A DNA stretch of 64,000 nt from Naegleria gruberi (lineage: Eukaryota). The first letter of the stretch is position 1; each line of letters starts with the position of its first letter. The notes under the pieces were generated by a model. That model was not told the origin of the DNA. It searched no databases and saw nothing but the letters and a program-made list of their open reading frames with translations. The position numbers and the translations under genes were made by a program. The stretch lies in assembly GCA_000004985.1 (NCBI GenBank), contig GG738849.1. One strand, written 5' to 3'. Shown piece by piece: positions 36,533-64,000 of this stretch.

Positions 36533-38383
36533 ATGCAAAGAATCACAGAAAGAACTAACTTTATCACCCGAGACATTGATGTAGTCGGAGATGTTGATGG
36601 TATGGTTCGTTTACTCCGAACAAGTGATGCACAAATGTTTTGTGGATATGAAGATTTTCCATCATGTTTTGATGAGGATTGTTTGGGTGCTTTGGAAAAA
36701 ATTTCCCTCCGAATGAAACTCTGTATGCAAGATAGATTAAATGGAGTGAGAGGAAGTGTTGTTATGAGTGGTTGTGGAACAAGTGGTAGAATTGCCTATT
36801 TTTGTTCAAAGAATTATAATTATTGTTTTAGAAAAGTATTTTCTGATAGGATTGATAATGATGAATGCTTTCAATTTATTATTGCTGGTGGAGTGAATGC
36901 TCTTGTTTCACCACAGGAAGCTGCTGAGGATAAACCAGATATTGGAGCAAGAGATTTGGTAAATGTCATTTCGAATACTAAAACTGAGAGAGGATTATTT
37001 ATTGGTATTACTTGTGGATTTTCTGCTGGTTATGTAGCTGGTCAAGTGATGCAATTGAGTGAGGATAAGAGTCTTGGTTTTGATTCTGTTTTATTTGGGT
37101 TTAATCCAAAGGAGTTGGCTAGGGATAGTCCAATTGAAGGATGGAGGGATGGAAATATTTCTTTCAAGGACGTAATTGAAAATGTGGAAAAGAACCAATC
37201 GAGAGAGGATGAATTTTTCTTTTTGAATCCAATTGTTGGACCAGAATCTATCACGGGTTCTACAAGAATGAAGGGTGGAAGTGCAACCAAATTTCTGCTT
37301 GATGTTGCCTTCTCTTCAGCCATTATGAGTATTCTGGATGAAAAGAAGAAGATTAGAGACAATATCATTCAAGTACTCTCTGGTTTTGAGCATACTGTGA
37401 GAAGTACATATGATTTTTCTAGTAATACCTTTTCAACAAATAGTCTCAAATCCATTACTCCAACCATTGAAATGGCAGCAAATAGTTTAAAGAATGGTAA
37501 CCTAGATGAAAGAAACGAGGATCAAATGGGCCATATTTATTACATTGGTGCTGAAAATGCTGGAATTTTGGGATTTATTGATTCTTCAGAGTGTGTACCA
37601 ACTTATGGTGCTCATCCTAATGATGTTAGAGGATTTATCAAAAAGGGATGGAACGATGTCTTTACCCATCACAATCAAGATATCAATAGTGATTTTGAAC
37701 AAAAGGGATCAAGTTTTGGCATTTCCTATGATTTCTTCAAACAAAATATTTTACATACAGTCAATTCTAGGGATTCGGTCTTCTTTTTGGCAATTGAACA
37801 ATGTATAGATGAAGAAACTCTTGCTGACATGAAGGAAATCCTAAATACGGTCAAGGAAAGAGGGGCCTCTGTCTGCTGGATTCTTGTAACCACAAAAGGT
37901 AATAATTCATTGTACCAGACCGTATCTGAATTGGGATCCCCAATATTGCACCATGCGCTTGACTCGCTTGGTCCAGTACCTTTCTTATATGGTTATGCAG
38001 AGCTTAGTATGAAACTTTTTTTGAATGCCATTACAACTGGTGCTCACGTATTGAAGGGTATGACATTTGGAAATAGAATGATCAATCTCAAAGTTAGTAA
38101 TAACAAACTATTTTATAGGGCTATTAATATTGTCAGTTCGATAATGAATGTAACTGAAGAGCTTGCAGAGAAATGTGTATTGAGAGCCATCTACAATGAT
38201 TCAACTCCAGAAAGTAACCTCGTCTCACTTCACATTAGTCATGCTATCAAGATGAATAAGGTAGTTCCTGTTGCCCTCTTGCTTGCTTCTTCAGGTGGTA
38301 CCTTGACTGTGGAACAAGCTAGAGAAATGTTAGCCAAAGACCCGGTGGTTAGGCAAGTAATTCTAAAGGAAAAGAAGAATTAA
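36533..38383 (+). CDS. Glucokinase regulatory protein (GCKR) homolog; double SIS-domain, MurQ-related protein.
   Basis: 'VVMSGCGTSGRIAYF', 'FNPKELARDSPIEGW', 'LNPIVGPESITGSTRMKGGSATKFLLD', 'GAHPNDVRGF' and 'TTGAHVLKGMTFGNRMINLKVSNNKLFYRAI' match human GCKR ('LSGGGTSGRMAFL', 'FNPVSMARNDPIEDW', 'LNPAIGPEGLSGSSRMKGGSATKILLE', 'GADFRDVRGF', 'STGAHVLLGKI...LRISNSKLFWRAL'). The length (616 aa) is the same as GCKR. Confidence 0.8.
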   Translation: MQRITERTNFITRDIDVVGDVDGMVRLLRTSDAQMFCGYEDFPSCFDEDCLGALEKISLRMKLCMQDRLNGVRGSVVMSGCGTSGRIAYFCSKNYNYCFRKVFSDRIDNDECFQFIIAGGVNALVSPQEAAEDKPDIGARDLVNVISNTKTERGLFIGITCGFSAGYVAGQVMQLSEDKSLGFDSVLFGFNPKELARDSPIEGWRDGNISFKDVIENVEKNQSREDEFFFLNPIVGPESITGSTRMKGGSATKFLLDVAFSSAIMSILDEKKKIRDNIIQVLSGFEHTVRSTYDFSSNTFSTNSLKSITPTIEMAANSLKNGNLDERNEDQMGHIYYIGAENAGILGFIDSSECVPTYGAHPNDVRGFIKKGWNDVFTHHNQDINSDFEQKGSSFGISYDFFKQNILHTVNSRDSVFFLAIEQCIDEETLADMKEILNTVKERGASVCWILVTTKGNNSLYQTVSELGSPILHHALDSLGPVPFLYGYAELSMKLFLNAITTGAHVLKGMTFGNRMINLKVSNNKLFYRAINIVSSIMNVTEELAEKCVLRAIYNDSTPESNLVSLHISHAIKMNKVVPVALLLASSGGTLTVEQAREMLAKDPVVRQVILKEKKN

Positions 38384-44922: not shown

Positions 44923-46756
44923 TTATTTGAAAACTTGTGATATCACACCAAGTCCCTTTGTTGTTCCTTCACGGAAGATTAATCGTTCACCAACTCTGAG
45001 ATATTCAGGTCTGAACAGGAATCTAAATTTGACTTTAGCCTTTTCACCTGTTCTTAGAGATTCATTATCGTTAATCTTTACAAGTTTAGCAGATTGTCTA
45101 ATACAATTACAATGTATAACTGGTTGATAATTTTCCTTAATAGTGGTACTATGATACAATACGAGAATATCAGCTTCAAATTCCCAAACAGCTTTTGGTT
45201 CTTCTTCGTCTACAATAACCATTCCCTTTCTAATTCCGGAACGTCTTTCTTTTTTCAATGCAAAACTTGCTTGTTGACCAGCATGAACTCTTTTCACGTT
45301 GACTCTCTTACAATGAATACTCTTAATTACGACACTTCTGAAATGTCCGTTGCTATCTGGTCCTAGCATTAGTTTGTCATTTACAGAAATACTTCCACTT
45401 TGTACAATACCAGAAACAACTGTACCAACACCACTGACAAAGAAGGTTTGATCAATGACATATTGTGCTGGTTTGTCAATTAATGATTCCCAATCTTTTC
45501 TAATTGGTAACAGATTGAGGAACTTATGCAAGAGTTGCAGATTTTCACCAGTTACTGAACTCATCAAGAACATTGGACAAATTCTGTCACTTGCTAAATT
45601 TTTGGCACAAGTCAGAACATCGTCATCATTCTTGACATGATATGGTAACTTTCTAACTCCAGGAAGTTTAAGAATTTTGTGAATGGTTTCAATAGTTTGT
45701 TTGAGAATATTTTCTGGACAAATGTCAACCTTAGTAATGCAGAAAAACATTGGAATCTTGAGAGCCAGACACAATCCGATATGTTCCTTGGTCATCTATA
45801 GTCATTGTTAGCATTCAAAAATAATTTTAAAAACTTACCTTTGTGACACCCATGTTACTACCAACACATAGGAGAGCATAATCTGGTCCTGTTGTCATAC
45901 CAAAAACGGTTGTTTTCAAGTACTTTTCGTGTCCAGCAAGGTCAATAAATGTACAAACTTTTGATGACTTATCAATAATATCTTTCCATGAAGGAGACTG
46001 TAAGTTTGAGTAATTTACAGTGTCACCTTTAGAATCAAATCCCATAATTTGATGACTGATACTAGAAGTTCTTCCTGTTGTCAATTCGTGCTTGTGGACA
46101 AAAACATTAGAACGAGCTAATCCTCTACCATTGTCAAGTTGTCCATGTGTCAGCACACCAATAAGTGTTGATTTTCCAGAGTCAACATTACCACAAACTG
46201 CAATATTTACATTCAAATATTCTTCTTCTCCGAATCTTCTTACAAGCACTTCAGCAACCCATCTCTTTTCTTCTGGATTGGTTATAGTAGCAGCTTGCTT
46301 CTTATTCTTTTTACCTTCGGAGGATACTTGCTTTTCACAAATAACTGAAACAGTGGCTTGTAACTCGATGGCCATCTTTTCAATATTTCCTAGTGTTTCT
46401 CTGTATTCTTCCTCAACTAATCCCAATGGATAGCCATCATCGTTGATTCCTATTTCATAGATGGCTTCACCTTGTCCTTCAGATAAACGATAGGACATTT
46501 GGGTAACAAGATGTTTAAATCTATCTTCTGACAATCCTACTAACTTCCATTTGTATTCTACATTTCCATCATCACTTTCCTTGGATAATATTTCATTAGA
46601 TGCCAAAAGTGATTTTTCTTCAATTAATTCCTTATCTTGCTCTAAATTGATAACTTGTTTATGTTCTGTACCAGAAGAAGAAGAAGCTTTTGTAGTAGTA
46701 GTGGCACCATTAACACTCTCTGTTGTTGATGGTATGGGATCTTTAGTCTCTGACAT
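44923..46756 (-). CDS. GTP-binding protein 1 (GTPBP1/AGP-1 family translational GTPase). Two exons with a 43-nt intron (45796..45838).
   Basis: 'EGQGEAIYEIGINDDGYPLGL', G1 'AVCGNVDSGKSTLIGVL', G3 'IDLAGHEKY', 'SNMGVTK|MTKEHIGLCLALKIPMFFCITKVDICP' across a GTAAGT...CTATAG intron, and a beta-barrel domain 2 'VSGVGTVVSGIVQSG'. Confidence 0.8.
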
Positions 46757-47209: not shown

Positions 47210-50200
47210 TTATTGTAATAGATTTTGTTGACTGCTACCACTTTGGAGGGAAATATCAGATTCTGAACGACCAACTAGTCTACTAAAGGTTCTTGGATCG
47301 ACTGCTCTGGTTGGTAGTGATTGACTTGATGAAGAGACATCAGATTCCAATTTAATTTCATTTTCATCGACGAAAACTACTGCCTTATCACTCTTCTGCT
47401 TGGAGCTTGAAGAATTGGAGTCTTCTTCCTTCTTACTGAGATTTCCATTTGAATCAACAAAGGTTGGCTCGACTGGAATTGGTAAACCACGATCCATTAA
47501 TTCCACATCCCATAATCTATTATCATCATATTCGTCCAAGTCAACATCCAAAGATTCTCCTTCAATCTTCTTCAAATATTTAACGAAACGTTCCCATAAT
47601 TTAACCATTCCTTTCTTGAGTCTGATTTTGAGTGGAGCTTTTGTGGTTGTTTGTGGAACTGGTGTTTCAGATGGAATGTCAACTATAGTTGTGGCCGACT
47701 TTTCGGTGAGCTCTACTTGAGTAGTTTGAGATTTGGAGTTTTCTTCTTTGAGTTCAATATCATTGGAGGAGAGGAATGAATTATTGACACCAGCAGACAA
47801 TATGGCCTTTTGATTCTTTTGCTTTTCAGCGAGTTGCTTCTTGATTCTTCTATCTGCCAAATATTGAGATAAAAAGTCGAGAGCAATAAGTAAAATAATA
47901 GCTGCAGAACTGATTATAACAGATATAATACACAAATAACCAAGTGCTGAGCCTGTTGCTTCGTCTGGGAACTCATTGACATAGAAGAGCAATCCAGAGA
48001 AGAGTAAAAACTCAGTTGACAAGAGGACAATATACTCCATAACATTGTGGAATACTCTTCTGTATGGAACGTGATGGGTTTGCAAAATGAATGAAATGAA
48101 AATCACAAACATGGTGAAGAGAATGACAATAATTGGCCATGTGGAGAAGAAGATGATGGCTGCAGAGATGGCTAACTTTCTCAAAATTACAATAATTTCC
48201 CAGAACAATCTTCCATTTCTGAAACGAACGAACAAGAAACGGAATCTTGCATAAAATTTGTAACTCTTGGTAGCATCGTTCTTCTTCCAAATAATGTAAG
48301 CAAATAGGGCAATAGTTCCCAATCCAAAGAAGATGAATGTCAATAAGGCAAATGAAAAGTAGACCCACCAAGTATTCTCAAAACAATAAAGAGTGGTGTC
48401 AGCACTCACATAAAATCTCTTGACACCCTGATCCAAAACCTCTCTACAATCAAATATTTCAGCTGCCTTTGTAATAACAAAGACATAACTAAAACTAATC
48501 ACCACAATGAAAGTGTGAATAAATTTGTCACCATAGGCAATAATTTCTCTCTTGGATCTTGGAGTAAGGAAGTATCTCAAAATGTCTCTTCTAATTCCCT
48601 TCATAATTTTAATGAAAATATTCTTATGTTCAATGTTGAACCATTCGACAACCTTTGGATGTTTTCTTATGGCAGCTATGAACGGCAATTTGGAAAGAGT
48701 AACAGTTCTTAAGCATTCCAAACCAAATACAATAATCAGTAACACTGAGATGAATACAGGCATGGCAATGGTAAGACCCCACTTGAGTCCATATGTAATA
48801 ATCTCAATACATTCTGGAACGACTGATATTATTCAATTGAATTATTTTCTTAGGTTAAACAATTAAGATAATGATACTTACAAATATCAAGATTAAGATT
48901 GAAAAATTTCAAAGTGTCAAATGCCTGTTGTAAACTGTCAGGCCATTCAAAATTATACACTGTAAAAACGGCAATAATTTGGAAATAGCTGATAGCAATA
49001 CTAGCACTAGACAAGTGAGAAACCTTCAATTGAGCAAACTTGAACAAAACCAAAGCAATAATAATTACAACTGCAACAACAATCAAGAAACGCAATTGAA
49101 CATCAGTATTACACTCCTTACAAATGTCACCACTCTTAAAATACAATCCAGTAACACATGAAACGCATTTGATACCAGAATAACCTGTAGCACATCTACC
49201 TGCCAAAGTTAAATTACCAGGACATCTCAATTCTGCATTTGGTTCATCACATTTTACAATGACAATTTTTCCATTCTGAATTTTGGTTGTCTCTGCATCC
49301 CACCAATAGCCAGGTAATGGTTTTGGAAGAGAGGAGCCACCTTCACATGTTGCTCCAGTTGGGCATGGCCAACATTCAGCAGTTAGAATATCACTATCAT
49401 TTCTTCTGTAATAGCCCTTTTCACAGTCACAATTGAATTGAGAGCTTGATCCTGCAGAGAGGGTGGTTTTGAAAGCACCACATGAAACACATTTGGATTG
49501 AGCTGTCAAATTGTTATAACTTCCAACTTCACAAGGAATACAACTAAAGAAACCTTCTAATGGTTTATATTGGCCAATTGGACATTCAGTGCACGATTTT
49601 TCATAATCCTCAGCAGTGAAACCAACTGGACAAGCTTTAATAAAGATTGGATCTTTAGCATAGGCATATTGATAATTATTGCTATATTTTTGTACGAAAT
49701 TCAATGTGTGTGAATAATTTGAAAAAAACAACCTCTACTTACTATGACACTGAAACCTTGGCATATCCATCAGGATGTGAAGGACTTGTGCAATTAATTG
49801 CATAATCTTCCAAAAATAAACATTCCTCAGAGGATGTAAAATCTCCCAATTTGAAATAAATCTTTTCACTTGAACTGAACTTGGCTCCGGTTGACTTTGC
49901 TCTTACAGTTACCATATCACCACCTTTGGCTTCAATTTCTAATGGACTGACAGAATCAACAATTGGATTTTCAAATAATTCAAATAAAAATCCATCACTT
50001 CTCAAATTAGTTGTTGTTTCCAAGTAGATTTTGAAATTGGTCTTGTCTGGGAATGAGATTCTGGAATTGAATGGTCTAACATTGTAACTATCAATAAGTG
50101 ATTTTAAATCAGCTGCATTACATATACATCTGAATTCTGTACTAGATAGTCCAGAAGTAGCAGTATAATTTACACGAATGTTGGTATCAATTGAATACTC

Positions 50201-53349: not shown

Positions 53350-54939
53350 TTATTCCATATTGTTGTGTTGATGACGATGGGTGTAGTTTGTACTTGAAGA
53401 CTTTTTAGCAGTGAATTTATATTGAGCTGCAAATACATCTGATGGAATATCCTTTGCTCCTTCACGATATAAAACTTCTACAGTCCTTGATGTTGGACTG
53501 AATGGGAATGATTCAAGTAATGAAAATGCTTTCCAATCTTGATTAAATCGTAAATATGTTGCCAACATGGTATTATAAAGACGTTCTCTAAGGGATTCAT
53601 CTTGAATCTTGTCACGGAATCGGAAAAATACTCTCTCAGCTTCATTGAGATTACCAGTTATTGTGTATGCATAAATGATTTGATAGGCAGAATTTGAACC
53701 TCCTGTTTTGTCTATTATTATTCTTTCCAATTCTTTCAGTTCATTAAGCTTTTTTGAATCTGCAAGAGCAATCAATAAAATTCTATAAGAATTGATTGGA
53801 ATTTCATATCCATCCTTTAACAATTCAACATAGTAGTGATAGACCTTATCTAATTGGTTCTTGTTAAAGTAATAATAGAATAAGAATGAATAAATGGAAA
53901 CTGAAGGTTTAACCTTATCCTTTCTCATATGACTGAATAAAAATGAAATTAAATCATTTCTATCTTGATTACAGGCAGCAGAAATTAAAATTGTATATGT
54001 TGAGGTCATTCTCTTAATACCCATATCAGGCATTTCATGGAAGAAACGAAGTGCCAAATCAATATTATTGTTTTTAACGTGATGATTAAGAATTGGAGCA
54101 AAGATATCGGCTGTCAAGTGCTTTGAACCTTGCAATTTGACAGTAATTTCGTGAGCTTTTTCCATCATACCTACATTGACATAGGCATAAACAAGGGAAG
54201 ACCAGTGTCTACCATTTGGATTTTGTAATCTAGAAAAGAGAGCTTCAACTTTTTCAATATCCTTCATTCTTGCATAAAGTGTAATTCCTGTATGGATAAT
54301 ATTTTCGTTATTATTATCCTTAACATTTTCAAAAATCTCTAATGCTTCCTTGATACATCCTCTTTCTTCATAAAACTTCATCAAAACTCCATAAACTGAT
54401 GATCTTGGCAATTGTTTGATTGATTTAATATTGTCAAATAAATGTTCTTCTGAAACTCTACGATTAAAGATACATAAATCTGATAATTGTTTAAATACTT
54501 CCGATTGTAATTCAGGTGAAGCATCTTCTTGTCCATTCTTCTTGACATATTCTAAAATCTCGTTTAATACTTTAACGTTTGGAGTAAATGTATTGGTGTG
54601 TTTAATGGCAGAATCAAATATAGCTGTTTTTAATTCATTAATAGATGATTCTTTAGAAACTTCCTCTAGAAGAAAATCATCAACAAAAACATCTCCGATA
54701 GTAGGAGCTGGTGTTGTTGGTAAAGAAGTTTCTGTAGTACTATTTGTTATTGCTTCAACTTCCTCACTAATTGGTGTGGTGCTATTGTTCATTCCTCTCA
54801 TAATAGTGTGATATTTGTTATTAGTAGATGAAACAAAGCAACTTTGAGTGCTTTTGGAAAAATTCATGAATTTATATTGTGGTAGAGCACCTCTCATCAC
54901 AACTTTGGAGACAATTCTTGGTAATTGTGACGCTCTCAT
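53350..54939 (-). CDS. Pentatricopeptide/TPR-like repeat protein, probably mitochondrial.
   Basis: Repeated 35-aa helical-hairpin units ('YNTMLATYLRFNQDWKAFSLLESF', 'IIYAYTITGNLNEAERVFFRF', 'YTILISAACNQDRNDLISFLFSHM'); N-terminus is presequence-like; true ATG at 54937-54939. Confidence 0.5.
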   Translation of the reverse strand: MRASQLPRIVSKVVMRGALPQYKFMNFSKSTQSCFVSSTNNKYHTIMRGMNNSTTPISEEVEAITNSTTETSLPTTPAPTIGDVFVDDFLLEEVSKESSINELKTAIFDSAIKHTNTFTPNVKVLNEILEYVKKNGQEDASPELQSEVFKQLSDLCIFNRRVSEEHLFDNIKSIKQLPRSSVYGVLMKFYEERGCIKEALEIFENVKDNNNENIIHTGITLYARMKDIEKVEALFSRLQNPNGRHWSSLVYAYVNVGMMEKAHEITVKLQGSKHLTADIFAPILNHHVKNNNIDLALRFFHEMPDMGIKRMTSTYTILISAACNQDRNDLISFLFSHMRKDKVKPSVSIYSFLFYYYFNKNQLDKVYHYYVELLKDGYEIPINSYRILLIALADSKKLNELKELERIIIDKTGGSNSAYQIIYAYTITGNLNEAERVFFRFRDKIQDESLRERLYNTMLATYLRFNQDWKAFSLLESFPFSPTSRTVEVLYREGAKDIPSDVFAAQYKFTAKKSSSTNYTHRHQHNNME

Positions 54940-55097: not shown

Positions 55098-56776
55098 TTA
55101 GTAGTCTTGGGATGATTCGAGTAATTCTCTTTTCATTCTATTAATGTCCTCAATAGAGAACCCTTCATTCTCATCCTCCCTCTCTTCTTCCAATGACGAG
55201 TTTGGTGAATGAGCTTGAATCCTTGAATTTTCTCGTTTCTTATTTTGTGAAGCTCTCTTCACTTTGCTTGTCTTTTTCCAGTAAGCATTGTAAATGTCAT
55301 TCAATAATCCCCAAATTGTGTCATAATCTCCTGAAATAACTTCTTTCGTGGACCACAAGAAACGAAGCTCAATTGTCTTGTTATCCCTTAATACTGAAAA
55401 CACCCGTTCCAAATTATTGTGCATGGCCGCAGTAGTTTGAGGAAGTCTGCTAATTCCTTTCATTTTTCCCTCTCCTTCAATTCGAGCAACTATTTCTGCA
55501 AATTTTAAGCCAGTCCTCAAATCATTTTCGCATTGAATGTTTGAATTGAATTCGATACCTAAATCGTATTCAATCCACCGGGCAATATGTTTAAATTTCT
55601 CCATAGAGTTCTCGTCTAAAATTTGTGGCTCATTATTCTTTTGTACAAATGATTTTCTCTCTGCTCTCATTGGCTGCTCTACTTGCTGATGAGTTACCTC
55701 AGGTTCCTCCTCTTCCTCTCGATCCACATTTGGTTTCCTTGTAGGAATGAAAATTCGTTTGCTTTGGGTATGTCCACTTGTTTTTGAACTGGTTTTGGTT
55801 GCGAAGTAATTGCAAGATCTTCAGTGTTGGTTTGGGAATTGTAGAGTGGAGCAGAGACTGGTGCACTTGGTTGATTGGAAGAAACATTCTTGATATTTAG
55901 TTTTGGAATGGAAGTAGTTGGTTTAAAAGGCAAGTTCGATTTTCTTGGTTTGTTTGCTGATACTTGTCGATTCTTCCAGTCCAAGTCCAGATTTCTTCTA
56001 TTATCCAATTCCCCCAGGAATCTTGTCCTTGTAGATTCTTCATCTGCAATAAGAGATTCCTTTTTAATATACACTGATCTCATTACTGGACCAATAGAGG
56101 GCCTTCTATCAATATCCATATCCCCATTTGAATCGGATTCCAATACATTAAGGGGTTGAGATTTTTTCATATCATTCATTTGATTTCTCCTTGATGTATT
56201 ATTATTAATTGGTGGATCGTCTTCCCACGACACCTTAGGTTTTGTTGACTGTTTTTCTTGTTCCTGTTTCTTGCTTGTTGTATCCAATATTTCGTCCTGC
56301 TGTGGTTGATGATTTGATTTTGATGAACTAAAACTTTGACGTTGTTTCTCCAATTCTACTTGATTTTCGAAGTGTTCTTTGAGGAATCCCACTGATATAA
56401 CAGTTCTAATCGGAGGTGTACACTGAGGTCTCCTCCTTTCTCTTCCTATTAATTTGTGGTAAAATCCAGAGAAGGTAGTATTTAGGGAAGAATTGGTAGT
56501 ATTGATAGTTGATTGTACATTGTGAAACCTTGAAGAAGAAATTACTTCTTCCTCTTCATCCTCTGAGGATTCTGTATTTTCTGTATTAGGTTGTGCATTT
56601 GTTGATTTATCAACTTGTTGAAATGAAGGAAGGGAAGATGGATCACGATAAATAGAGGGATTTGCAAACTTTGATTTGAGGGCTGTTATTCCGTTCTGTG
56701 TCGATGAATTATTGCCAAGCACAATTATTTTGCCCTTAGAAAAACTCGTGCTCGAACCAAGATGAGCAGTTTTCAT
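55098..56776 (-). CDS. Hypothetical S/T-rich protein with a C-terminal calponin-homology-like domain. Two overlapping ORFs (55694..56800 and 55098..55727) in different frames, so either a frameshift or two tightly packed genes.
   Basis: The C-terminal ORF 'EKFKHIARWIEYDLGIEF...LRTGLKFAEIVARIEG...NLERVFSVLRDNKTIELRF...DTIWGLLNDIYNAYWKK' resembles Hook/SPEF-type CH domains. The upstream ORF stops 23 nt before the first ATG of the downstream ORF, on the same strand. Confidence 0.3.
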
Positions 56777-57145
56777 ATTCTTTTTTGTGATGATTTTCAA
56801 AATTACGAGTAACGTTCAAATGTTGTGGCTTCTCTGTTTAGTAAGTTCTTAATGGGAAAATTCACTGCTGTGAAGATGGTGCTATTTGTCTGGTACCCAA
56901 ATCAAATTTAAGCAAACAGGTCATGAATTCCTCATATTTATCTATTGAAAAATGTTCCATTGGAAATAATTCTTCTTTTATTGAGGTTTTTTAATAGTTA
57001 TGTACACAACAATTTTAGGCGCCAAATAATTAAAAAACATGGGATTGCATTAAAATCGTAACTTAATCAATTAAAAAAAACATCAACACACTTTTCCGCA
57101 CCAACTGATTAGAGTGTTGTATTTTTGCTGTTGCTGTTGTATTTA

Positions 57146-60133: not shown

Positions 60134-61000
60134 TTACTTTCTCATTAACTTTTTCAATAATCTGTAAATACTTGGAGTAATAGCCAAAGTAACAGCCATT
60201 CTCAAAGGTTCAGTAAATTTAGTCAAAACCCAAGCAACACCGGCATTGGCATACATTTCTGATTTATCCAAATCAGACATGTCAATAAGCTTATCAAGTC
60301 CACTACTATGCAACCATTGTAAAACATCCTTAGTTGCGAAAACTCCTTGTTGTAATAAGAGGAAAATTGTACCTAAAACCAAAAAGTAAATACCAAAATA
60401 AATTACAATACCCAAAGCACCGTATTGCTTGACAAATCTCTTAATCTTGGCAAATACTGTTTCTTGGGATCTGATTTCTTGTTCAGTTGTTTGTAAAACG
60501 TATAATTCTTGATTTGGTGACATTTTAACATTTAATTTCTTTCCAATATCTTCCCTTGTTGGCTTTGGTTCGAATGGAATTTTATGAATAATTCCTTTAT
60601 AATCAGCTTGCATTTCTCTAATTTCATCACCAACAACTGGTTGTCTATCAATTCTACAAACAATTTCATTATCCTCTACTGGATCTCCTTCAACTTTTAA
60701 CCATTCAATAATAACATTGGAATTTTTTACAACATCTTCAGGTGTTTTTACAGTAATATATTTTGTTTCGGAAAGTTCTGGATCAACAGCTTTATGAATC
60801 ATACTATTCACTGTACTAAATGAACGATTAATTGTTGTTCCACTAAAAGTAGTACTACCATTATTATTAATAATATTATCAGATAATGAATTGAATTTTC
60901 TAGAATTAATTGATGATGATTGTCTCATAGACAAGGCAGTGGTCAAAGCCTTTCCCAATGTACGTCTATTTCTACTACTACTCAATACTACTCTATTCAT
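60134..61000 (-). CDS. Mitochondrial FAM210/DUF1279-family protein with an N-terminal lipoyl/biotinyl-like hybrid-barrel segment that lacks the modified Lys.
   Basis: 'KIKRFVKQYGALGIVIYFGIYFLVLGTIFLLLQQG' is the DUF1279 pattern. 'VIIEWLKVEGDPVEDNEIVCRIDRQPVV...YKGIIHKI' resembles a lipoyl domain, with DRQ in place of DKA. The N-terminus is S/T/N-rich and presequence-like. Confidence 0.4.
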   Translation of the reverse strand: MNRVVLSSSRNRRTLGKALTTALSMRQSSSINSRKFNSLSDNIINNNGSTTFSGTTINRSFSTVNSMIHKAVDPELSETKYITVKTPEDVVKNSNVIIEWLKVEGDPVEDNEIVCRIDRQPVVGDEIREMQADYKGIIHKIPFEPKPTREDIGKKLNVKMSPNQELYVLQTTEQEIRSQETVFAKIKRFVKQYGALGIVIYFGIYFLVLGTIFLLLQQGVFATKDVLQWLHSSGLDKLIDMSDLDKSEMYANAGVAWVLTKFTEPLRMAVTLAITPSIYRLLKKLMRK

Positions 61001-61361: not shown

Positions 61362-61775
61362 TTATTGTTGAGTGGTAGTGGTAGCCTCGGAGGATGAGCA
61401 TTCTTCAGAAGTGGATGGTTTCTTCTTTCTAGCTGCTCTTCTTTCCAAACTTTCAATTTGTTCATCAATACCCTTGATGTTCATACTAGCATCAAGATTT
61501 GTTTCAACTTGCTTTTTGTTTAATCTGAGTTTGAATCCATCATCTTCATTTTCTTTAACTCCTTGCACTACGGAAGCAACAATGAAGGTTGCTGTTTGGT
61601 TGGCATCGGAAACGAGTTGTGTAATTCTGTTGGCATCCTTTTCAAATCTATTCTTTTCAAATTCTGTTCTGATTTGTCGGAGTGAAAGTTTGAGCATTCT
61701 AGTATCTTTATCAAAAACAATTCTGCTTGCTCTTAAGAGTTGTCTGTATGCTTGAAGGGAAGGGGTTACGGACAT
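61362..61775 (-). CDS. LYR-motif protein, LYRM7/Mzm1-like (complex III Rieske-protein chaperone).
   Basis: 'LQAYRQLLRASRIVFDKDTRMLKLSLRQIRTEFEKNR' is the Complex1_LYR signature and is similar to MZM1L ('[37 protein letters not shown]'); 137 aa. Confidence 0.55.
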   Translation of the reverse strand: MSVTPSLQAYRQLLRASRIVFDKDTRMLKLSLRQIRTEFEKNRFEKDANRITQLVSDANQTATFIVASVVQGVKENEDDGFKLRLNKKQVETNLDASMNIKGIDEQIESLERRAARKKKPSTSEECSSSEATTTTQQ

Positions 61776-61899: not shown

Positions 61900-62706
61900 T
61901 TAAAATCCATTGAATTTAGTCGAACCTCTTCCTCTCACATAATCAGATGAGTCTCTATTTTCATATCTGTGTGATGATGAATAATTATTCCTAGAATGGT
62001 CACCATATGGCCTATACCTGTCGTCATATCTATAGACACGTCCAGTGGTTGGTGGTGCATTTCGTTTTGGTGATGAGCTATCTTGTTTTTCTCTATTGTC
62101 TTGCTTCTTCTTTTTATCCTTCTTTTGTTTCTTTTTCAGTTTCAACTCTCCACAATTAATAATGACTATCTCTTCAAGTGGTGTATTATCTTCATTGACT
62201 TTGACCTTTTCAATCTGTTTTATAATATTCATTCCTTCAATAACCCTTCCAAAAACAACATGCTTGTTATCCAAATAATCCAATTCAGATGACATTGTAA
62301 TGAAGAATTGAGATCCTACAGTATTTGGACCAGCGTTCGCAGCAGAAAGTAATCCAGCCCGAGAATGCTTCAAAATAAAGTTTTCATCTTCCATCATTCC
62401 ACCATAAATTGATTCTCCTCCTCGTCCATTAAAATCAGAAAAATCTCCACCTTGAATAATAAATTCAGGTACCACCCGATGGAAAATACTTCCTTTAAAA
62501 TGTAATGGTTTTTTAGTTTCCACTCCGATACCTTTTTCTCCAGTGCAAAGACATCTAAAATTTTCTGCTGTTCTTGGACAAATATGTTTGTATAATTTAA
62601 ATATTATTCTTCCGATCTTTTCATCTCCTATTACAATATCAAAAAAAACTCTTGGGTTTTTTATGTGTTTGGATAGGAGTGGATTTTTGGTTGATGATTT
62701 TGGCAT
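61900..62706 (-). CDS. Cyclophilin-type peptidyl-prolyl cis-trans isomerase with a K/R/S-rich C-terminal tail.
   Basis: 'PRVFFDIVIGDEKIGRIIFKLY', 'FHRVVPEFIIQGGDF', 'GGESIYGG' and 'GPNTVGSQFFIT' are canonical cyclophilin motifs; the tail is 'KKKQKKDKKKKQDNREKQDSSSPKR...'. Confidence 0.85.
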   Translation of the reverse strand: MPKSSTKNPLLSKHIKNPRVFFDIVIGDEKIGRIIFKLYKHICPRTAENFRCLCTGEKGIGVETKKPLHFKGSIFHRVVPEFIIQGGDFSDFNGRGGESIYGGMMEDENFILKHSRAGLLSAANAGPNTVGSQFFITMSSELDYLDNKHVVFGRVIEGMNIIKQIEKVKVNEDNTPLEEIVIINCGELKLKKKQKKDKKKKQDNREKQDSSSPKRNAPPTTGRVYRYDDRYRPYGDHSRNNYSSSHRYENRDSSDYVRGRGSTKFNGF

Positions 62707-63145
62707 TTTTTTATTATTTAAAATAATTATTATTTAAATCATCAATGCTCAATTAATCTATTTTTACGTTGATGTTAGGAAATTGTGGAAAGAGGGCAAA
62801 ATAAAGGAGTGTCTTGCTATGTTTTTAGAGAAGCCTAATACATTCGATGCCTCTTTTCTGTTGTACAAGAAAGTATAGTGCCGAAGAACATATCAAAATA
62901 TTGGAATCAATACCGTATTCAAATCATCTTAGCCACAATTTTATCATTACAAAGAAGCTCCATTGATGCAGAATTGTATGTGAAGGATCCATCATCAATG
63001 ATTTATGTATCAAAAGATGATGATTTGAAAAAACTTTCACCTCTGTCCATCCAATTAATTTTGGGAACCATAAGGCTTGTGAGTTGTTGGAATATATGAA
63101 GAATGTAAAAATGGATGCAATAATATTCCTAGTATTGATAACATT

Positions 63146-64000
63146 TTGCACAGAAAAAAACTACTCATGGAAGGAATTGATATGCATAAAAAGATCATGG
63201 AATATAAGATAGAATCCTTAAAGGTTGACAATGCACTGATGAACTTTTATACGAAATGTGAAATGCCAGATGAAGCATTAGAAATTTTTGACCACCTCAA
63301 AAGTGAAAAGAAACCAATTGATATTATAACATGGACTTGTACTATTCAAGCTTACATGTCCAAAAATCAAGTTTCAAAAGCTATGTCCTTACTCTCAGAA
63401 ATTCAATTATATCAAACCCCTGACCCAATATTGTTTTCAACAGTATTACATATTTGTGCTGAAAATAGGTTGATTGAAGAAGGACAGGAAATTCATCAAA
63501 GAATTAACAAATTGAAAAAGCAGAATATCATTTTAGACAATGCACTGATGAATTTTTATACGAAATGTGGAATGCCAGAAAAAGCATTAGAAATATTTGA
63601 AAAACTCAAAAGTGAAAAGAAGCCAATGGAGGTCATGATATGGAACTGTGCAATTCAAGCTCTTGGTGAACAAAAGAAGGCCATTGAGGCATTTTCTCTT
63701 TTCAAAGAAATGGAAAGTAATAGCATAATTCCAACTGAGATTACATTTAATATCTTGTTAAATATTTGTGCTGAAAATAAGTTGATTGAGGAAAGGACAG
63801 GAAATTCATCAAAGAATCAAAAAATTGAAAAAGCAGAATATCATTTTAGACAATGCATTGATGAATTTTTATACTAAATGTAAAATGCCAGATGAAGCAT
63901 TAGAAATATTTGAACAACTCAAAAATGAAAAGAAACCAATTGATATTATAACATGGACTTGTGCTATTCAAGCTCTTGTACAAAAGAAATGCATTGATGA
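63146..64000 (+). CDS. PLS-like pentatricopeptide repeat protein built from tandem DNA repeats of about 315 nt; 3' partial at the window edge. A frameshift lies at about 63790 in the third repeat, after which the ORF ends at 63877 and the repeat continues in another frame.
   Basis: 'DNALMNFYTKCEMPDEALEIFDHLKSEKKPIDIITWTCTIQAYMS...KAMSLLSEIQL...PDPILFSTVLHICAENRLIEEGQEIHQRI' then a near-identical second unit 'DNALMNFYTKCGMPEKALEIFEKLKSEKKPMEVMIWNCAIQALGEQ...'. This architecture mirrors plant PLS PPRs ('ALIDMYAKCG...A..VF..M..KDVVSWNAMI.GY...EAL.LF..M...G..PD..TF..VL.AC.H.GLV.EG'). Nucleotide units 63223-63540, 63538-63850 and 63848-64000 are more than 85% identical. Confidence 0.6.
63181..64000 (+). 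repeat. Tandem nucleotide repeat (period about 315 nt, at least 2.6 copies, continuing beyond the window) encoding the PPR triplets.
   Basis: Direct comparison of 63223..63345, 63539..63661 and 63850..63972: 'gacaatgcactgatgaa(c/t)ttttatac(g/t)aaatgt(g/a)(a/g)aatgccaga...' is conserved nearly base for base. Confidence 0.8.

What the first reader, a model, noticed from the sequence alone, without database searches (positions are those of the whole stretch)
63146..64000. Plant-like PLS-type PPR protein encoded by near-identical 315-nt tandem DNA repeats, with a frameshift in one repeat
The repeat unit encodes three PPR-like motifs. The 'ALMNFYTKCGMPEKALEIF..L..K....W...I......EA..LF.EM......P...TF...L..CAEN.LIEEGQEIH' pattern is that of land-plant PLS-class PPR proteins, which are organelle RNA-editing factors. 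PLS PPRs outside plants are known mainly from a few protists with organellar RNA editing. The DNA copies are more than 85% identical, implying recent expansion or concerted evolution. The third copy carries a 1-nt insertion at about 63790 ('gaggaaaggacagg' vs 'gaagaaggacagg') that terminates the ORF at 63877 while the repeat continues. This is either a pseudogenised copy or a collapse or indel error typical of tandem-repeat assembly. The gene runs off the window, so a C-terminal E/DYW deaminase domain cannot be assessed.
Basis: partly seen in the sequence, partly recalled or inferred. Interest (0 to 1): 0.6.

Follow-up and report, generated by a model that had tools for sequence, protein, structure and literature searches.

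The report
Broken Naegleria plant-type PPR repeat gene
This is one more copy, probably decaying, of the plant-like PLS/DYW-type PPR RNA-editing-factor family already described in the amoeba Naegleria gruberi, so it is real but not new.

Summary
The window is Naegleria gruberi nuclear DNA: a window ORF is 100% identical over 616 aa to NAEGRDRAFT_78308. Region 63069-64000 holds about 3.5 tandem units of 309-313 nt, not 315. Each unit encodes an S-P-L triplet of PPR motifs (Pfam PPR E=4e-36).

Whole-unit DNA identity is 77-86%. Only the S motif and L tail reach about 89%, so ">85%" is overstated.

The 1-nt insertion is real (A-run 63792-63794) and the ORF stops at 63877 while the repeat continues in the +1 frame. 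I found a second frame break at an A7 run (63154-63160). There is no recognisable N-terminus or start codon upstream.

The closest relatives are N. gruberi DYW-type PPR proteins: NAEGRDRAFT_32040 (46% identity, E+DYW) and 45423/45424. They are built from the same 103-104-aa "NFYTKCG" unit in near-identical tandem copies. This family, and C-to-U editing in N. gruberi mitochondria, were published in 2010-2011.

The PLS reading is therefore right, but the kind is already known. This copy looks like an unannotated, 5'-truncated, frameshifted paralogue, most likely a pseudogene. Homopolymer sequence error is the main rival. The E/DYW question stays open because I could not reach sequence beyond 64000.

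The parts
63069..63164 (+). Remnant of 'unit 0' (P-motif helix B plus the start of the L motif). It is read in a different frame from the main ORF.
   Evidence: The unit HMM built from paralogues only matches HMM positions 52-85 at E=6.8e-5. No unit homology is detectable upstream of 63069 in any frame.
63154..63160 (+). Frame break 1: an A7 run, one A short of keeping the frame. In the upstream frame it reads A_AAA_AAC.
   Evidence: Unit homology switches frame here, and the sequence was read directly. There is no stable RNA structure downstream (z=+0.2).
63146..63877 (+). Longest open frame across the array (243 codons from a TTG). The first in-frame ATG is at 63167, in the middle of an L motif. 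The ORF ends in 27 out-of-frame codons and a TAA at 63875-63877.
   Evidence: No gene with this product is on record.
63215..63523 (+). Unit 1 (309 nt, 103 codons): S motif (35 aa, NFYTKCE), P motif (34 aa) and L motif (34 aa).
   Evidence: HMM E=4e-32. Aligned with paralogue units and with plant S1/P1/L1 motifs.
63524..63836 (+). Unit 2 (312 nt plus 1 inserted A): S-P-L triplet.
   Evidence: HMM E=1.7e-32 up to 63793, then the tail continues in the +1 frame. 58% protein identity to unit 1.
63792..63794 (+).
   Evidence: Removing one A restores ...LIEEGQEIHQRIKKLKKQ.
63837..64000 (+). Unit 3 (partial, cut by the window end), open in the +1 frame: S motif plus the start of the P motif.
   Evidence: HMM E=3.3e-20 for 63846-63995. 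DNA identity is 83% to unit 2 and 86% to unit 1.
61900..62706 (-). Divergently oriented neighbour: a cyclophilin gene. Its start codon lies only 363 nt from the first detectable PPR homology, which limits the room for a PPR N-terminus.
   Evidence: Pfam Pro_isomerase E=4e-44; ORF.

Best explanation
Region 63069-64000 is the 5' part of a nuclear locus of the Naegleria gruberi plant-type PLS (DYW-type) PPR family.

Structure: it is a head-to-tail array of 103-104-codon units. Each unit encodes one S, one P and one L PPR motif.

How intact family members work (from established knowledge of plant PLS-DYW proteins, not tested here): each motif contacts one RNA base through residues 5 and last, and a C-terminal E/DYW cytidine deaminase converts a nearby C to U in mitochondrial transcripts.

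This copy: as it stands in the assembly it cannot make such a protein. It has two single-base frame breaks in A-runs, its first unit lacks its 5' half, and it has no start codon or N-terminal presequence. I therefore read it as a decaying, unannotated paralogue (a pseudogene or gene relic). It probably arose by intragenic unit amplification and unequal exchange in a family that has many more members (10-11) than known editing sites (2).

Shown versus inferred: family assignment and frame breaks are shown. Pseudogene status and RNA-binding or editing function are inferred.
For: Organism: a window ORF is 100% identical to NAEGRDRAFT_78308.

PPR and PLS assignment:
- Pfam PPR E=4e-36.
- BLASTP gives 46% identity, E=4e-78, to NAEGRDRAFT_32040, which carries E motif and DYW_deaminase.
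- The same 103-104-aa unit with invariant NFYTKC, W, C-A and G occurs in 32040, 45423 and 45424 and in environmental relatives.
- The units align in register with plant S1-P1-L1 motifs.
- The best PDB match is a synthetic PPR-DYW protein.
- 73 of the 150 best-scoring representatives carry an E motif.

Decay:
- Two frame breaks and no unit homology upstream of 63069.
- No similarity to paralogue N-termini.
- Only 363 nt to the neighbouring gene's ATG.
- In the exhaustive representative search, no protein is more than about 41% identical to the ORF, so the ORF appears unannotated.

Past coding constraint: dN/dS between units is 0.37-0.47.

Real indels in relatives: a 1-nt frame break occurs in the non-repetitive E motif of L002, and another inside the repeat array of L003, both in MEGAHIT contigs of related organisms.

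Literature: N. gruberi has 10-11 DYW-type PPR genes but only two verified C-to-U sites (PMC4202320).
Against: - Both frame breaks sit in homopolymer A-runs, where sequencing and consensus errors concentrate.
- Apart from the two breaks, the frames are open. There are no in-frame stops across about 290 codons of units 1-3.
- Other array-bearing gene models in the same assembly are also split or 5'-truncated (45423/45424, 32040, P0296). This could point to a technical problem with tandem arrays rather than biology.
- I could not see reads, transcripts or the sequence beyond 64000.
Confidence: 0.58

Rival explanations
1. The gene is intact in the organism. The two frame breaks are base-calling or consensus errors in a hard-to-assemble tandem array of the reference genome. 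The real product would be a full PLS-E-DYW editing factor continuing beyond the window.
For: - Both breaks are 1-nt length changes in A-runs (A7 and A3).
- Correcting them gives uninterrupted, conserved units.
- dN/dS is below 1.
- The neighbouring-numbered models 45423/45424 of the same assembly are split in the same way.
Against: - Errors do not explain the missing 5' half of unit 0, or the absence of any start codon or N-terminal region.
- The long ORFs elsewhere in the window are intact, up to 1280 codons.
- A comparable 1-nt break occurs in the non-repetitive E motif of L002, and one occurs inside the repeat array of L003, both in short-read assemblies of related organisms.
Confidence: 0.27
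2. The locus is expressed despite the breaks. Either a short PLS-only protein is made from ATG 63167, or the breaks are bypassed by ribosomal or transcriptional slippage at the A-runs (for example a -1 shift on A_AAA_AAC at 63155-63161).
For: - The upstream frame presents the canonical X_XXY_YYZ heptamer A_AAA_AAC, and a -1 shift restores the unit register exactly.
- The same heptamer sits at the break in L003.
- Frames stay open on both sides of every break examined.
Against: - The heptamer is the automatic result of deleting one A from GAA/GGA AAA AAA C.
- There is no downstream stimulatory structure (z=+0.2 and +2.2).
- The other breaks need shifts of a different kind: +1 at 63792-63794, and the L002 break sits on a non-slippery site. 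No single mechanism fits them all.
- An ORF starting inside an L motif has no targeting sequence.
Confidence: 0.07
3. It is a generic P-class PPR or TPR protein, not a PLS-type array.
For: - Designer P-type PPR proteins also score strongly against it (E about 1e-47).
- Motif lengths are 35/34/34-35 rather than the plant 35/35-36/31.
Against: - The three motifs of a unit are distinct, and each aligns with its own plant counterpart (S1, P1 or L1).
- The closest relatives are E/DYW proteins.
- About half of the top 150 relatives carry the PLS-specific E motif.
- The top PDB match is a PLS PPR-DYW protein.
Confidence: 0.02

Closest known systems
Naegleria gruberi DYW-type PPR proteins (Knoop & Rudinger 2010), e.g. 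NAEGRDRAFT_32040 (XP_002679496.1) and NAEGRDRAFT_45423/45424 (XP_002682649.1/XP_002682650.1)
   Same: - Same organism.
- Same 103-104-aa S-P-L unit with the NFYTKCG signature, in tandem copies that resemble each other more within a gene than between genes.
- 46% identity to 32040 over 279 aa.
- Like 45423/45424, the array is interrupted by a 1-nt indel.
   Different: - It lies on a different scaffold: 850,158 bp, against 573,072, 1,001,995 and 331,721 bp.
- No annotated protein corresponds to it.
- It has two frame breaks and no N-terminus.
- Its E/DYW part, if any, is outside the window.
Land-plant PLS-class PPR RNA editing factors (E/E+/DYW subclasses)
   Same: - Ordered P-L-S motif triplets with the characteristic consensus: xGNALIxMYxKCG for S, W..(M)I..Y for P and TF..vL.aCa....eeG..iH for L.
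- 25-28% identity over 250-300 aa, in register.
   Different: - The S motif carries a 4-aa insertion (35 aa rather than 31) and the L motif is 34 aa.
- Units within a gene are far more alike than plant motifs usually are.
- This copy is not an intact ORF.
Synthetic PLS PPR-DYW protein (PDB 9kfx) and PLS9-PPR (PDB 5iww)
   Same: Best sequence matches among solved structures (E=2.6e-57 and 1.2e-46). The helical-hairpin PLS fold is therefore expected.
   Different: These are designed consensus proteins. No structure was predicted for the window protein here.
Environmental heterolobosean-like PLS arrays (ENA ERZ27315067 k141_1309238 = L003, k141_310422 = L002; ERZ25039499 contig_51910 = L001)
   Same: - Same 312-nt (104-aa) unit. 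L001 has 9.4 copies at 87% identity.
- L002 and L003 end in E + DYW.
- Each has 1-nt frame breaks. Those read at the DNA level, in L002 and L003, lie in A-runs.
   Different: - 29-45% protein identity; the organisms are unidentified.
- L001 is a chimeric contig fused to bacterial DNA.

Membership tests
PPR repeat proteins (Pfam PF01535/PF13041) | Tandem helical-hairpin repeats of about 35 aa that match the PPR profiles above the gathering score | tested here: met
   PPR 121 bits (cut-off 25) and PPR_2 118 bits (cut-off 30).
PLS-class PPR | Repeating triplets of three distinct motif variants homologous to P, L and S, in fixed order | tested here: met
   In-register alignment with the S1/P1/L1 motifs of Cryptomeria and Thalictrum DYW proteins. 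The unit HMM gives E about 1e-32 per unit.
PLS-class PPR | Canonical motif lengths: P 35, L 35-36, S 31-32 aa | tested here: not met
   Lengths here are S 35 (a 4-aa insertion before the last residue), P 34-35 and L 34, for a unit of 103-104 aa. The N. gruberi paralogues share this deviation.
PLS-class PPR, E/DYW subclasses | C-terminal E1/E2 (E, E+) motifs | not testable with these tools
   The array runs off the window at 64000 and the N. gruberi scaffold is not retrievable. The motifs are present in the closest paralogues.
PLS-class PPR, DYW subclass | C-terminal DYW cytidine-deaminase domain with HxE and CxxC zinc ligands | not testable with these tools
   Same reason as for the E motifs. 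P0133 and P0198 have HSE/HAE, CGDCH/CNDCH and C-terminal DFF/GYW.
Functional organellar PPR editing factor | Continuous ORF with a start codon and an N-terminal organelle-targeting region | tested here: not met
   Two frame breaks; no ATG-initiated N-terminus; no homology to the N-terminal 128 aa of P0152.
Functional organellar PPR editing factor | A matching C-to-U editing site in organelle transcripts | not tested
   The literature reports two sites in N. gruberi mitochondria (PMC4202320). No target was predicted here for a broken array.
Naegleria gruberi DYW-type PPR family | 103-104-aa S-P-L unit with the NFYTKCG signature, repeated in tandem within a gene | tested here: met
   Unit spacing is 103/104 aa in the window and 100-104 aa in P0133, P0152, P0198, P0001 and P0003, mostly 103-104. 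Invariant columns are N10 F11 Y12 T13 K14 C15 W40 I44 F75 C82 A83 G91.
Programmed -1 ribosomal frameshift site | X_XXY_YYZ slippery heptamer in the 0 frame plus a downstream stimulatory RNA structure | tested here: not met
   The heptamer A_AAA_AAC is present at 63155-63161, but the downstream 90 nt fold no better than shuffles (z=+0.2; L003 z=+2.2).

The most novel reading that the evidence does not exclude
Every heterolobosean PLS/DYW array I could inspect carries single-base frame breaks, while the frames on both sides stay open and conserved. The cases are: this locus (two breaks), NAEGRDRAFT_45423/45424, and two short-read metagenome contigs. Where the DNA could be read, the breaks lie in A-runs; the 45423/45424 break is inferred from protein sequence only. 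If these indels are real and are tolerated or bypassed by slippage at A-runs, expression of these editing factors would depend on recoding. Alternatively, the arrays could be a rapidly turning-over birth-and-death repeat system, homogenised within each gene.
Probability: 0.05. Interest if true: 0.6.

Novelty: new member of a known kind. Interest (0 to 1): 0.2.

Why it matters
It matters little beyond annotation. DYW-type PLS PPR proteins and plant-type C-to-U editing in Naegleria gruberi have been known since 2010-2011.

The locus adds an apparently unannotated, probably decaying copy to that family.

It also shows that the family's genes are built from gene-specific, tandemly amplified 104-codon S-P-L units that are repeatedly interrupted by 1-nt indels. 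This is useful for re-annotating the N. gruberi PPR genes, since several current models are split or 5'-truncated. It is also relevant to the observation that these amoebae have many more DYW genes than editing sites.

Tried and rejected
1. Extending past 64000. Exact-product look-ups failed for the cyclophilin, the FAM210-like gene, the SIS-domain protein (also tried as P0010) and two versions of the PPR ORF. The N. gruberi scaffold is not in that index, so the E/DYW question stays open.

2. Word-index homologue search with the PPR query. It returned only 9 hits and missed NAEGRDRAFT_32040 despite shared 8-9-mers, so its silence is not evidence. The exhaustive representative search was used instead.

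3. A 'bacterial PPR' lead. The best hit (P0001) sits next to bacterial genes. However, GC jumps from 31% to 50% at about position 2990, inside a truncated cox1. This is a chimeric contig, so the lead was rejected.

4. A TALE-like idea: near-identical units with variation focused on the PPR code positions (5 and last). In the 45423/45424 array, S5, P5 and P-last do vary, but so do about a third of all columns. There is no convincing enrichment, so I make no claim.

5. Programmed -1 frameshifting at A_AAA_AAC. There is no downstream structure, and the other breaks need different shifts. Rejected as the main explanation.

6. An intron bypass of the breaks. Unit homology is contiguous across both breaks, so no GT-AG intron can remove 1 nt.

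7. N-terminal homology upstream of 63069, tested with paralogue N-termini: none found.

8. A JGI metagenome scan with the unit alignment: no confirmed relatives.

9. tRNA scan of the window: none found.

Full report
**Source organism.** The window has about 34% GC and is densely packed with long ORFs that encode low-complexity, eukaryote-type proteins. The ORF at 36533-38380 is 100% identical over all 616 residues to NAEGRDRAFT_78308 of Naegleria gruberi, on an 850,158-bp contig. The next-best matches, at 53-59% identity, are an unnamed environmental (ENA) protein, N. fowleri, N. lovaniensis and Willaertia. The window is therefore N. gruberi nuclear DNA. The gene just upstream of the finding, on the opposite strand, is a cyclophilin (61900-62706; Pfam E=4e-44).

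**The observation.** The repeats are real.
- The repeat finder reports three copies of a 186-nt block at 63171, 63480 and 63793, spaced 309 and 313 nt apart, plus a 36-nt block spaced 312 nt.
- In coding register the units are 63215-63523 (309 nt), 63524-63836 (312 nt plus one extra base) and 63837-64000 (cut by the window end).
- The period is therefore 309-313 nt, not 315.
- Whole-unit DNA identity is 77% for unit 1 versus unit 2 (14 gap columns), 83% for 2 versus 3 and 86% for 1 versus 3.
- Only the block running from the L-motif tail through the S motif to the start of the P motif reaches 89%, and only for units 2 and 3. The second helix of P and the first helix of L are much more diverged.
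- Tandem Repeats Finder does not call the array at default score.
- Nei-Gojobori estimates between units give dS 0.46-0.8 and dN/dS 0.37-0.47. The copies are not very recent, and they evolved under coding constraint.
- The 1-nt insertion is exactly as described: GAGGAAAGGACAGG at 63788-63801, against GAAGAAGGACAGG one unit earlier.
- The ORF 63146-63877 ends 27 out-of-frame codons later. The repeat continues in the +1 frame to the window end.

**What the units encode.**
- The frame-corrected translation matches Pfam PPR (E=4e-36) and PPR_2 (E=1.5e-34).
- Each unit holds three different motifs.
- BLASTP against plant DYW-type proteins (Cryptomeria P0199, Thalictrum P0293) aligns them in register. 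'VDNALMNFYTKC..ALEIF' pairs with the plant S motif 'VGNALIDMYSKC..AHELF'. 'IITWTCTIQAY...' pairs with the P motif 'VVSWNRMIAGY...'. 'ILFSTVLHICAENRLIEEGQEIHQRI' pairs with the L motif 'FTFASILRACAKMRALTQGIHIHQRI'.
- The order and homology are therefore P-L-S, but the lengths are not canonical. S carries a 4-aa insertion (35 aa, not 31) and L is 34 aa.
- The best match among solved structures is a synthetic PLS PPR-DYW protein (9kfx, E=2.6e-57). PLS9-PPR (5iww) also scores highly.
- Of the 150 best representatives in an exhaustive search of 1.84 billion proteins, 73 carry an E motif and 18 a DYW domain, judged by HMMs I built from Pfam-delimited regions.

**Closest relatives.**
- By identity the nearest proteins are N. 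gruberi's own: NAEGRDRAFT_32040 (P0133, 799 aa), NAEGRDRAFT_45423 (P0152, 749 aa) and NAEGRDRAFT_45424 (P0198, 822 aa).
- P0133 and P0198 carry Pfam E_motif and DYW_deaminase; P0152 does not.
- BLASTP of the window protein against P0133 gives 46% identity over 279 aa, E=4e-78.
- All three are built from the same 103-104-aa unit with the NFYTKCG signature, in tandem copies. The copies are much more alike within a gene than between genes.
- These paralogues lie on other contigs (573,072, 1,001,995 and 331,721 bp), so the window locus is a separate family member.
- No protein in the representative library is more than about 41% identical to the window ORF. The ORF therefore seems to have no annotated gene model.

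**What is already known.** PMC4202320, PMC3858427 and PMC13386178 all cite two papers. Knoop & Rudinger 2010 discovered 10-11 DYW-type PPR genes in N. gruberi. It was the first case outside land plants and was attributed to ancient horizontal transfer. Rudinger et al. 2011 verified two C-to-U editing sites in N. gruberi mitochondrial transcripts.

**State of this copy.** I built an HMM from paralogue units only, with no window sequence, and ran it on all six frames of 62600-64000. It hits in four places:
- 63224-63523 in the ORF frame;
- 63533-63793 in the ORF frame;
- 63846-63995 in the +1 frame;
- 63069-63164 (unit positions 52-85, E=7e-5) in yet another frame.

The switch between that last piece and the ORF frame falls in the A7 run at 63154-63160. 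One more A would give ...FCTEKK-LLMEGIDMHKKI, matching ...ICAENR-LIEEGQEIHQRI.

Further signs of truncation:
- Upstream of 63069 there is no unit homology in any frame. That includes the S motif, which is the most conserved part of the unit.
- There is no similarity to paralogue N-termini and no ATG-initiated ORF.
- Only 363 nt separate 63069 from the cyclophilin start codon.
- The first in-frame ATG of the ORF (63167) lies in the middle of an L motif.

**Pseudogene or error?**
- Both breaks are 1-nt changes in A-runs, which fits either polymerase slippage in vivo or base-calling error.
- In favour of real decay: the missing 5' half of unit 0 and the missing N-terminus cannot be explained by point errors. 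Other long ORFs in the window are intact. The family has more members than known editing sites.
- Relatives from a MEGAHIT short-read assembly show the same kind of lesion. L002 breaks frame in the non-repetitive E motif at GAAAATTAAG, where A5 is expected. L003 breaks frame at GGAAAAAACTT, where A7 is expected and where the previous unit reads GKKLIEM.
- In favour of error: several array-bearing N. gruberi models look technically damaged. P0152 ends in ELSQHNY*. I worked out by hand from codon reading (not a computation) that this is the shifted reading of ELS-NTIIN. P0198 then starts mid-unit, so 45423/45424 is one gene split by a 1-nt indel. P0133, P0198 and P0296 also start inside a unit.
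- My weighting is about 0.58 for a real decaying paralogue, 0.27 for an intact gene with sequence errors, and the remainder for expression despite the breaks.

**Frameshift-bypass idea.**
- In the upstream frame, the first break reads A_AAA_AAC, a canonical -1 slippery heptamer. A -1 slip restores the unit register, and L003 has the same heptamer.
- This motif is the automatic product of deleting one A from 'xxA AAA AAA C'.
- The 90 nt downstream fold no better than shuffles (z=+0.2 and +2.2).
- The other breaks need a +1 shift or sit on non-slippery sequence.
- I keep this only as the low-probability novel reading.

**Mechanism (inferred).** In intact relatives, each PPR motif reads one RNA base through residues 5 and last, and the DYW domain deaminates a C just 3' of the bound stretch. 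This rests on established knowledge of plant PLS-DYW factors and is not tested here. I read the code positions by eye from the unit alignments:
- unit 1: S = N/D, P = T/D, L = S/N;
- unit 2: S = N/E, P = N/T, L = N/N;
- unit 3: S = N/D.

The units therefore differ at specificity positions, as expected for a once sequence-specific array. No target prediction is meaningful for a broken, truncated copy.

**Not resolved.** I could not determine whether an E/DYW domain follows beyond 64000. The N. gruberi scaffold could not be retrieved, and a JGI metagenome scan found nothing.

**Verdict.** This is a real PLS-type PPR tandem array and a real frameshift in the sequence. It belongs to a family already described in this organism and is most likely an unannotated pseudogene copy. 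Interest is low.

Noticed in passing
L001 1-2990 and 2990-11959 (ENA ERZ25039499 contig_51910): A 312-nt PLS-unit array (9.4 copies, 87% identity, 31% GC, four frame changes) abuts 50%-GC bacterial genes (cox1/cox2, PAS-GGDEF-EAL). The join lies inside a truncated cox1. This looks like a chimeric metagenome contig, not a bacterial PPR gene.
   Followed up: yes
Proteins P0152/P0198 = NAEGRDRAFT_45423/45424 (not in the window): 45423 ends in ELSQHNY*, which is the shifted reading of ELS-NTIIN, and 45424 starts mid-unit. The two annotated genes are probably one PLS-E-DYW gene split by a 1-nt indel. P0133 and P0296 also start inside a unit, so their models look 5'-truncated.
   Followed up: partly
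L002 ~3283 and L003 ~414-424 (ENA ERZ27315067, MEGAHIT contigs): Environmental relatives that have the same unit plus E + DYW each carry a 1-nt frame break in an A-run. L002 has A4 where A5 is expected, inside the E motif. L003 has A6 where A7 is expected, between units. The frames are otherwise open and conserved.
   Followed up: partly
window 53350-54939 (-): A second, unrelated PPR gene (529 aa; Pfam PPR_2 E=2e-20). It has no NFYTKCG unit and looks P-class. It matches the PLS unit only weakly (tblastn E about 1e-5).
   Followed up: partly
window 60134-61000 (-), 61362-61775 (-), 61900-62706 (-): The neighbours of the PPR locus are a FAM210A/B-domain protein, a Complex1_LYR-family protein and a cyclophilin with a basic/RS-like tail. 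From general knowledge, the first two families are typically mitochondrial.
   Followed up: no
window 45796-45838 (-) and 49682-49742 (-): Likely short spliceosomal introns that join adjacent ORF pairs: GTAAGT...TATAG (43 nt) and GTAAGT...ATATAG (61 nt). The ORF pair 55694-56800 / 55098-55727 (-) overlaps in different frames and has no obvious intron.
   Followed up: partly
window 63800-63875 (and the equivalent position in each unit): The coding sequence GAAATTCATCAA...TTGATGAATTT forms a modest hairpin (z=-2.05 over 63795-63884). It arises from the EIHQ...LMNF codons and so probably recurs in every unit. No function is implied.
   Followed up: no
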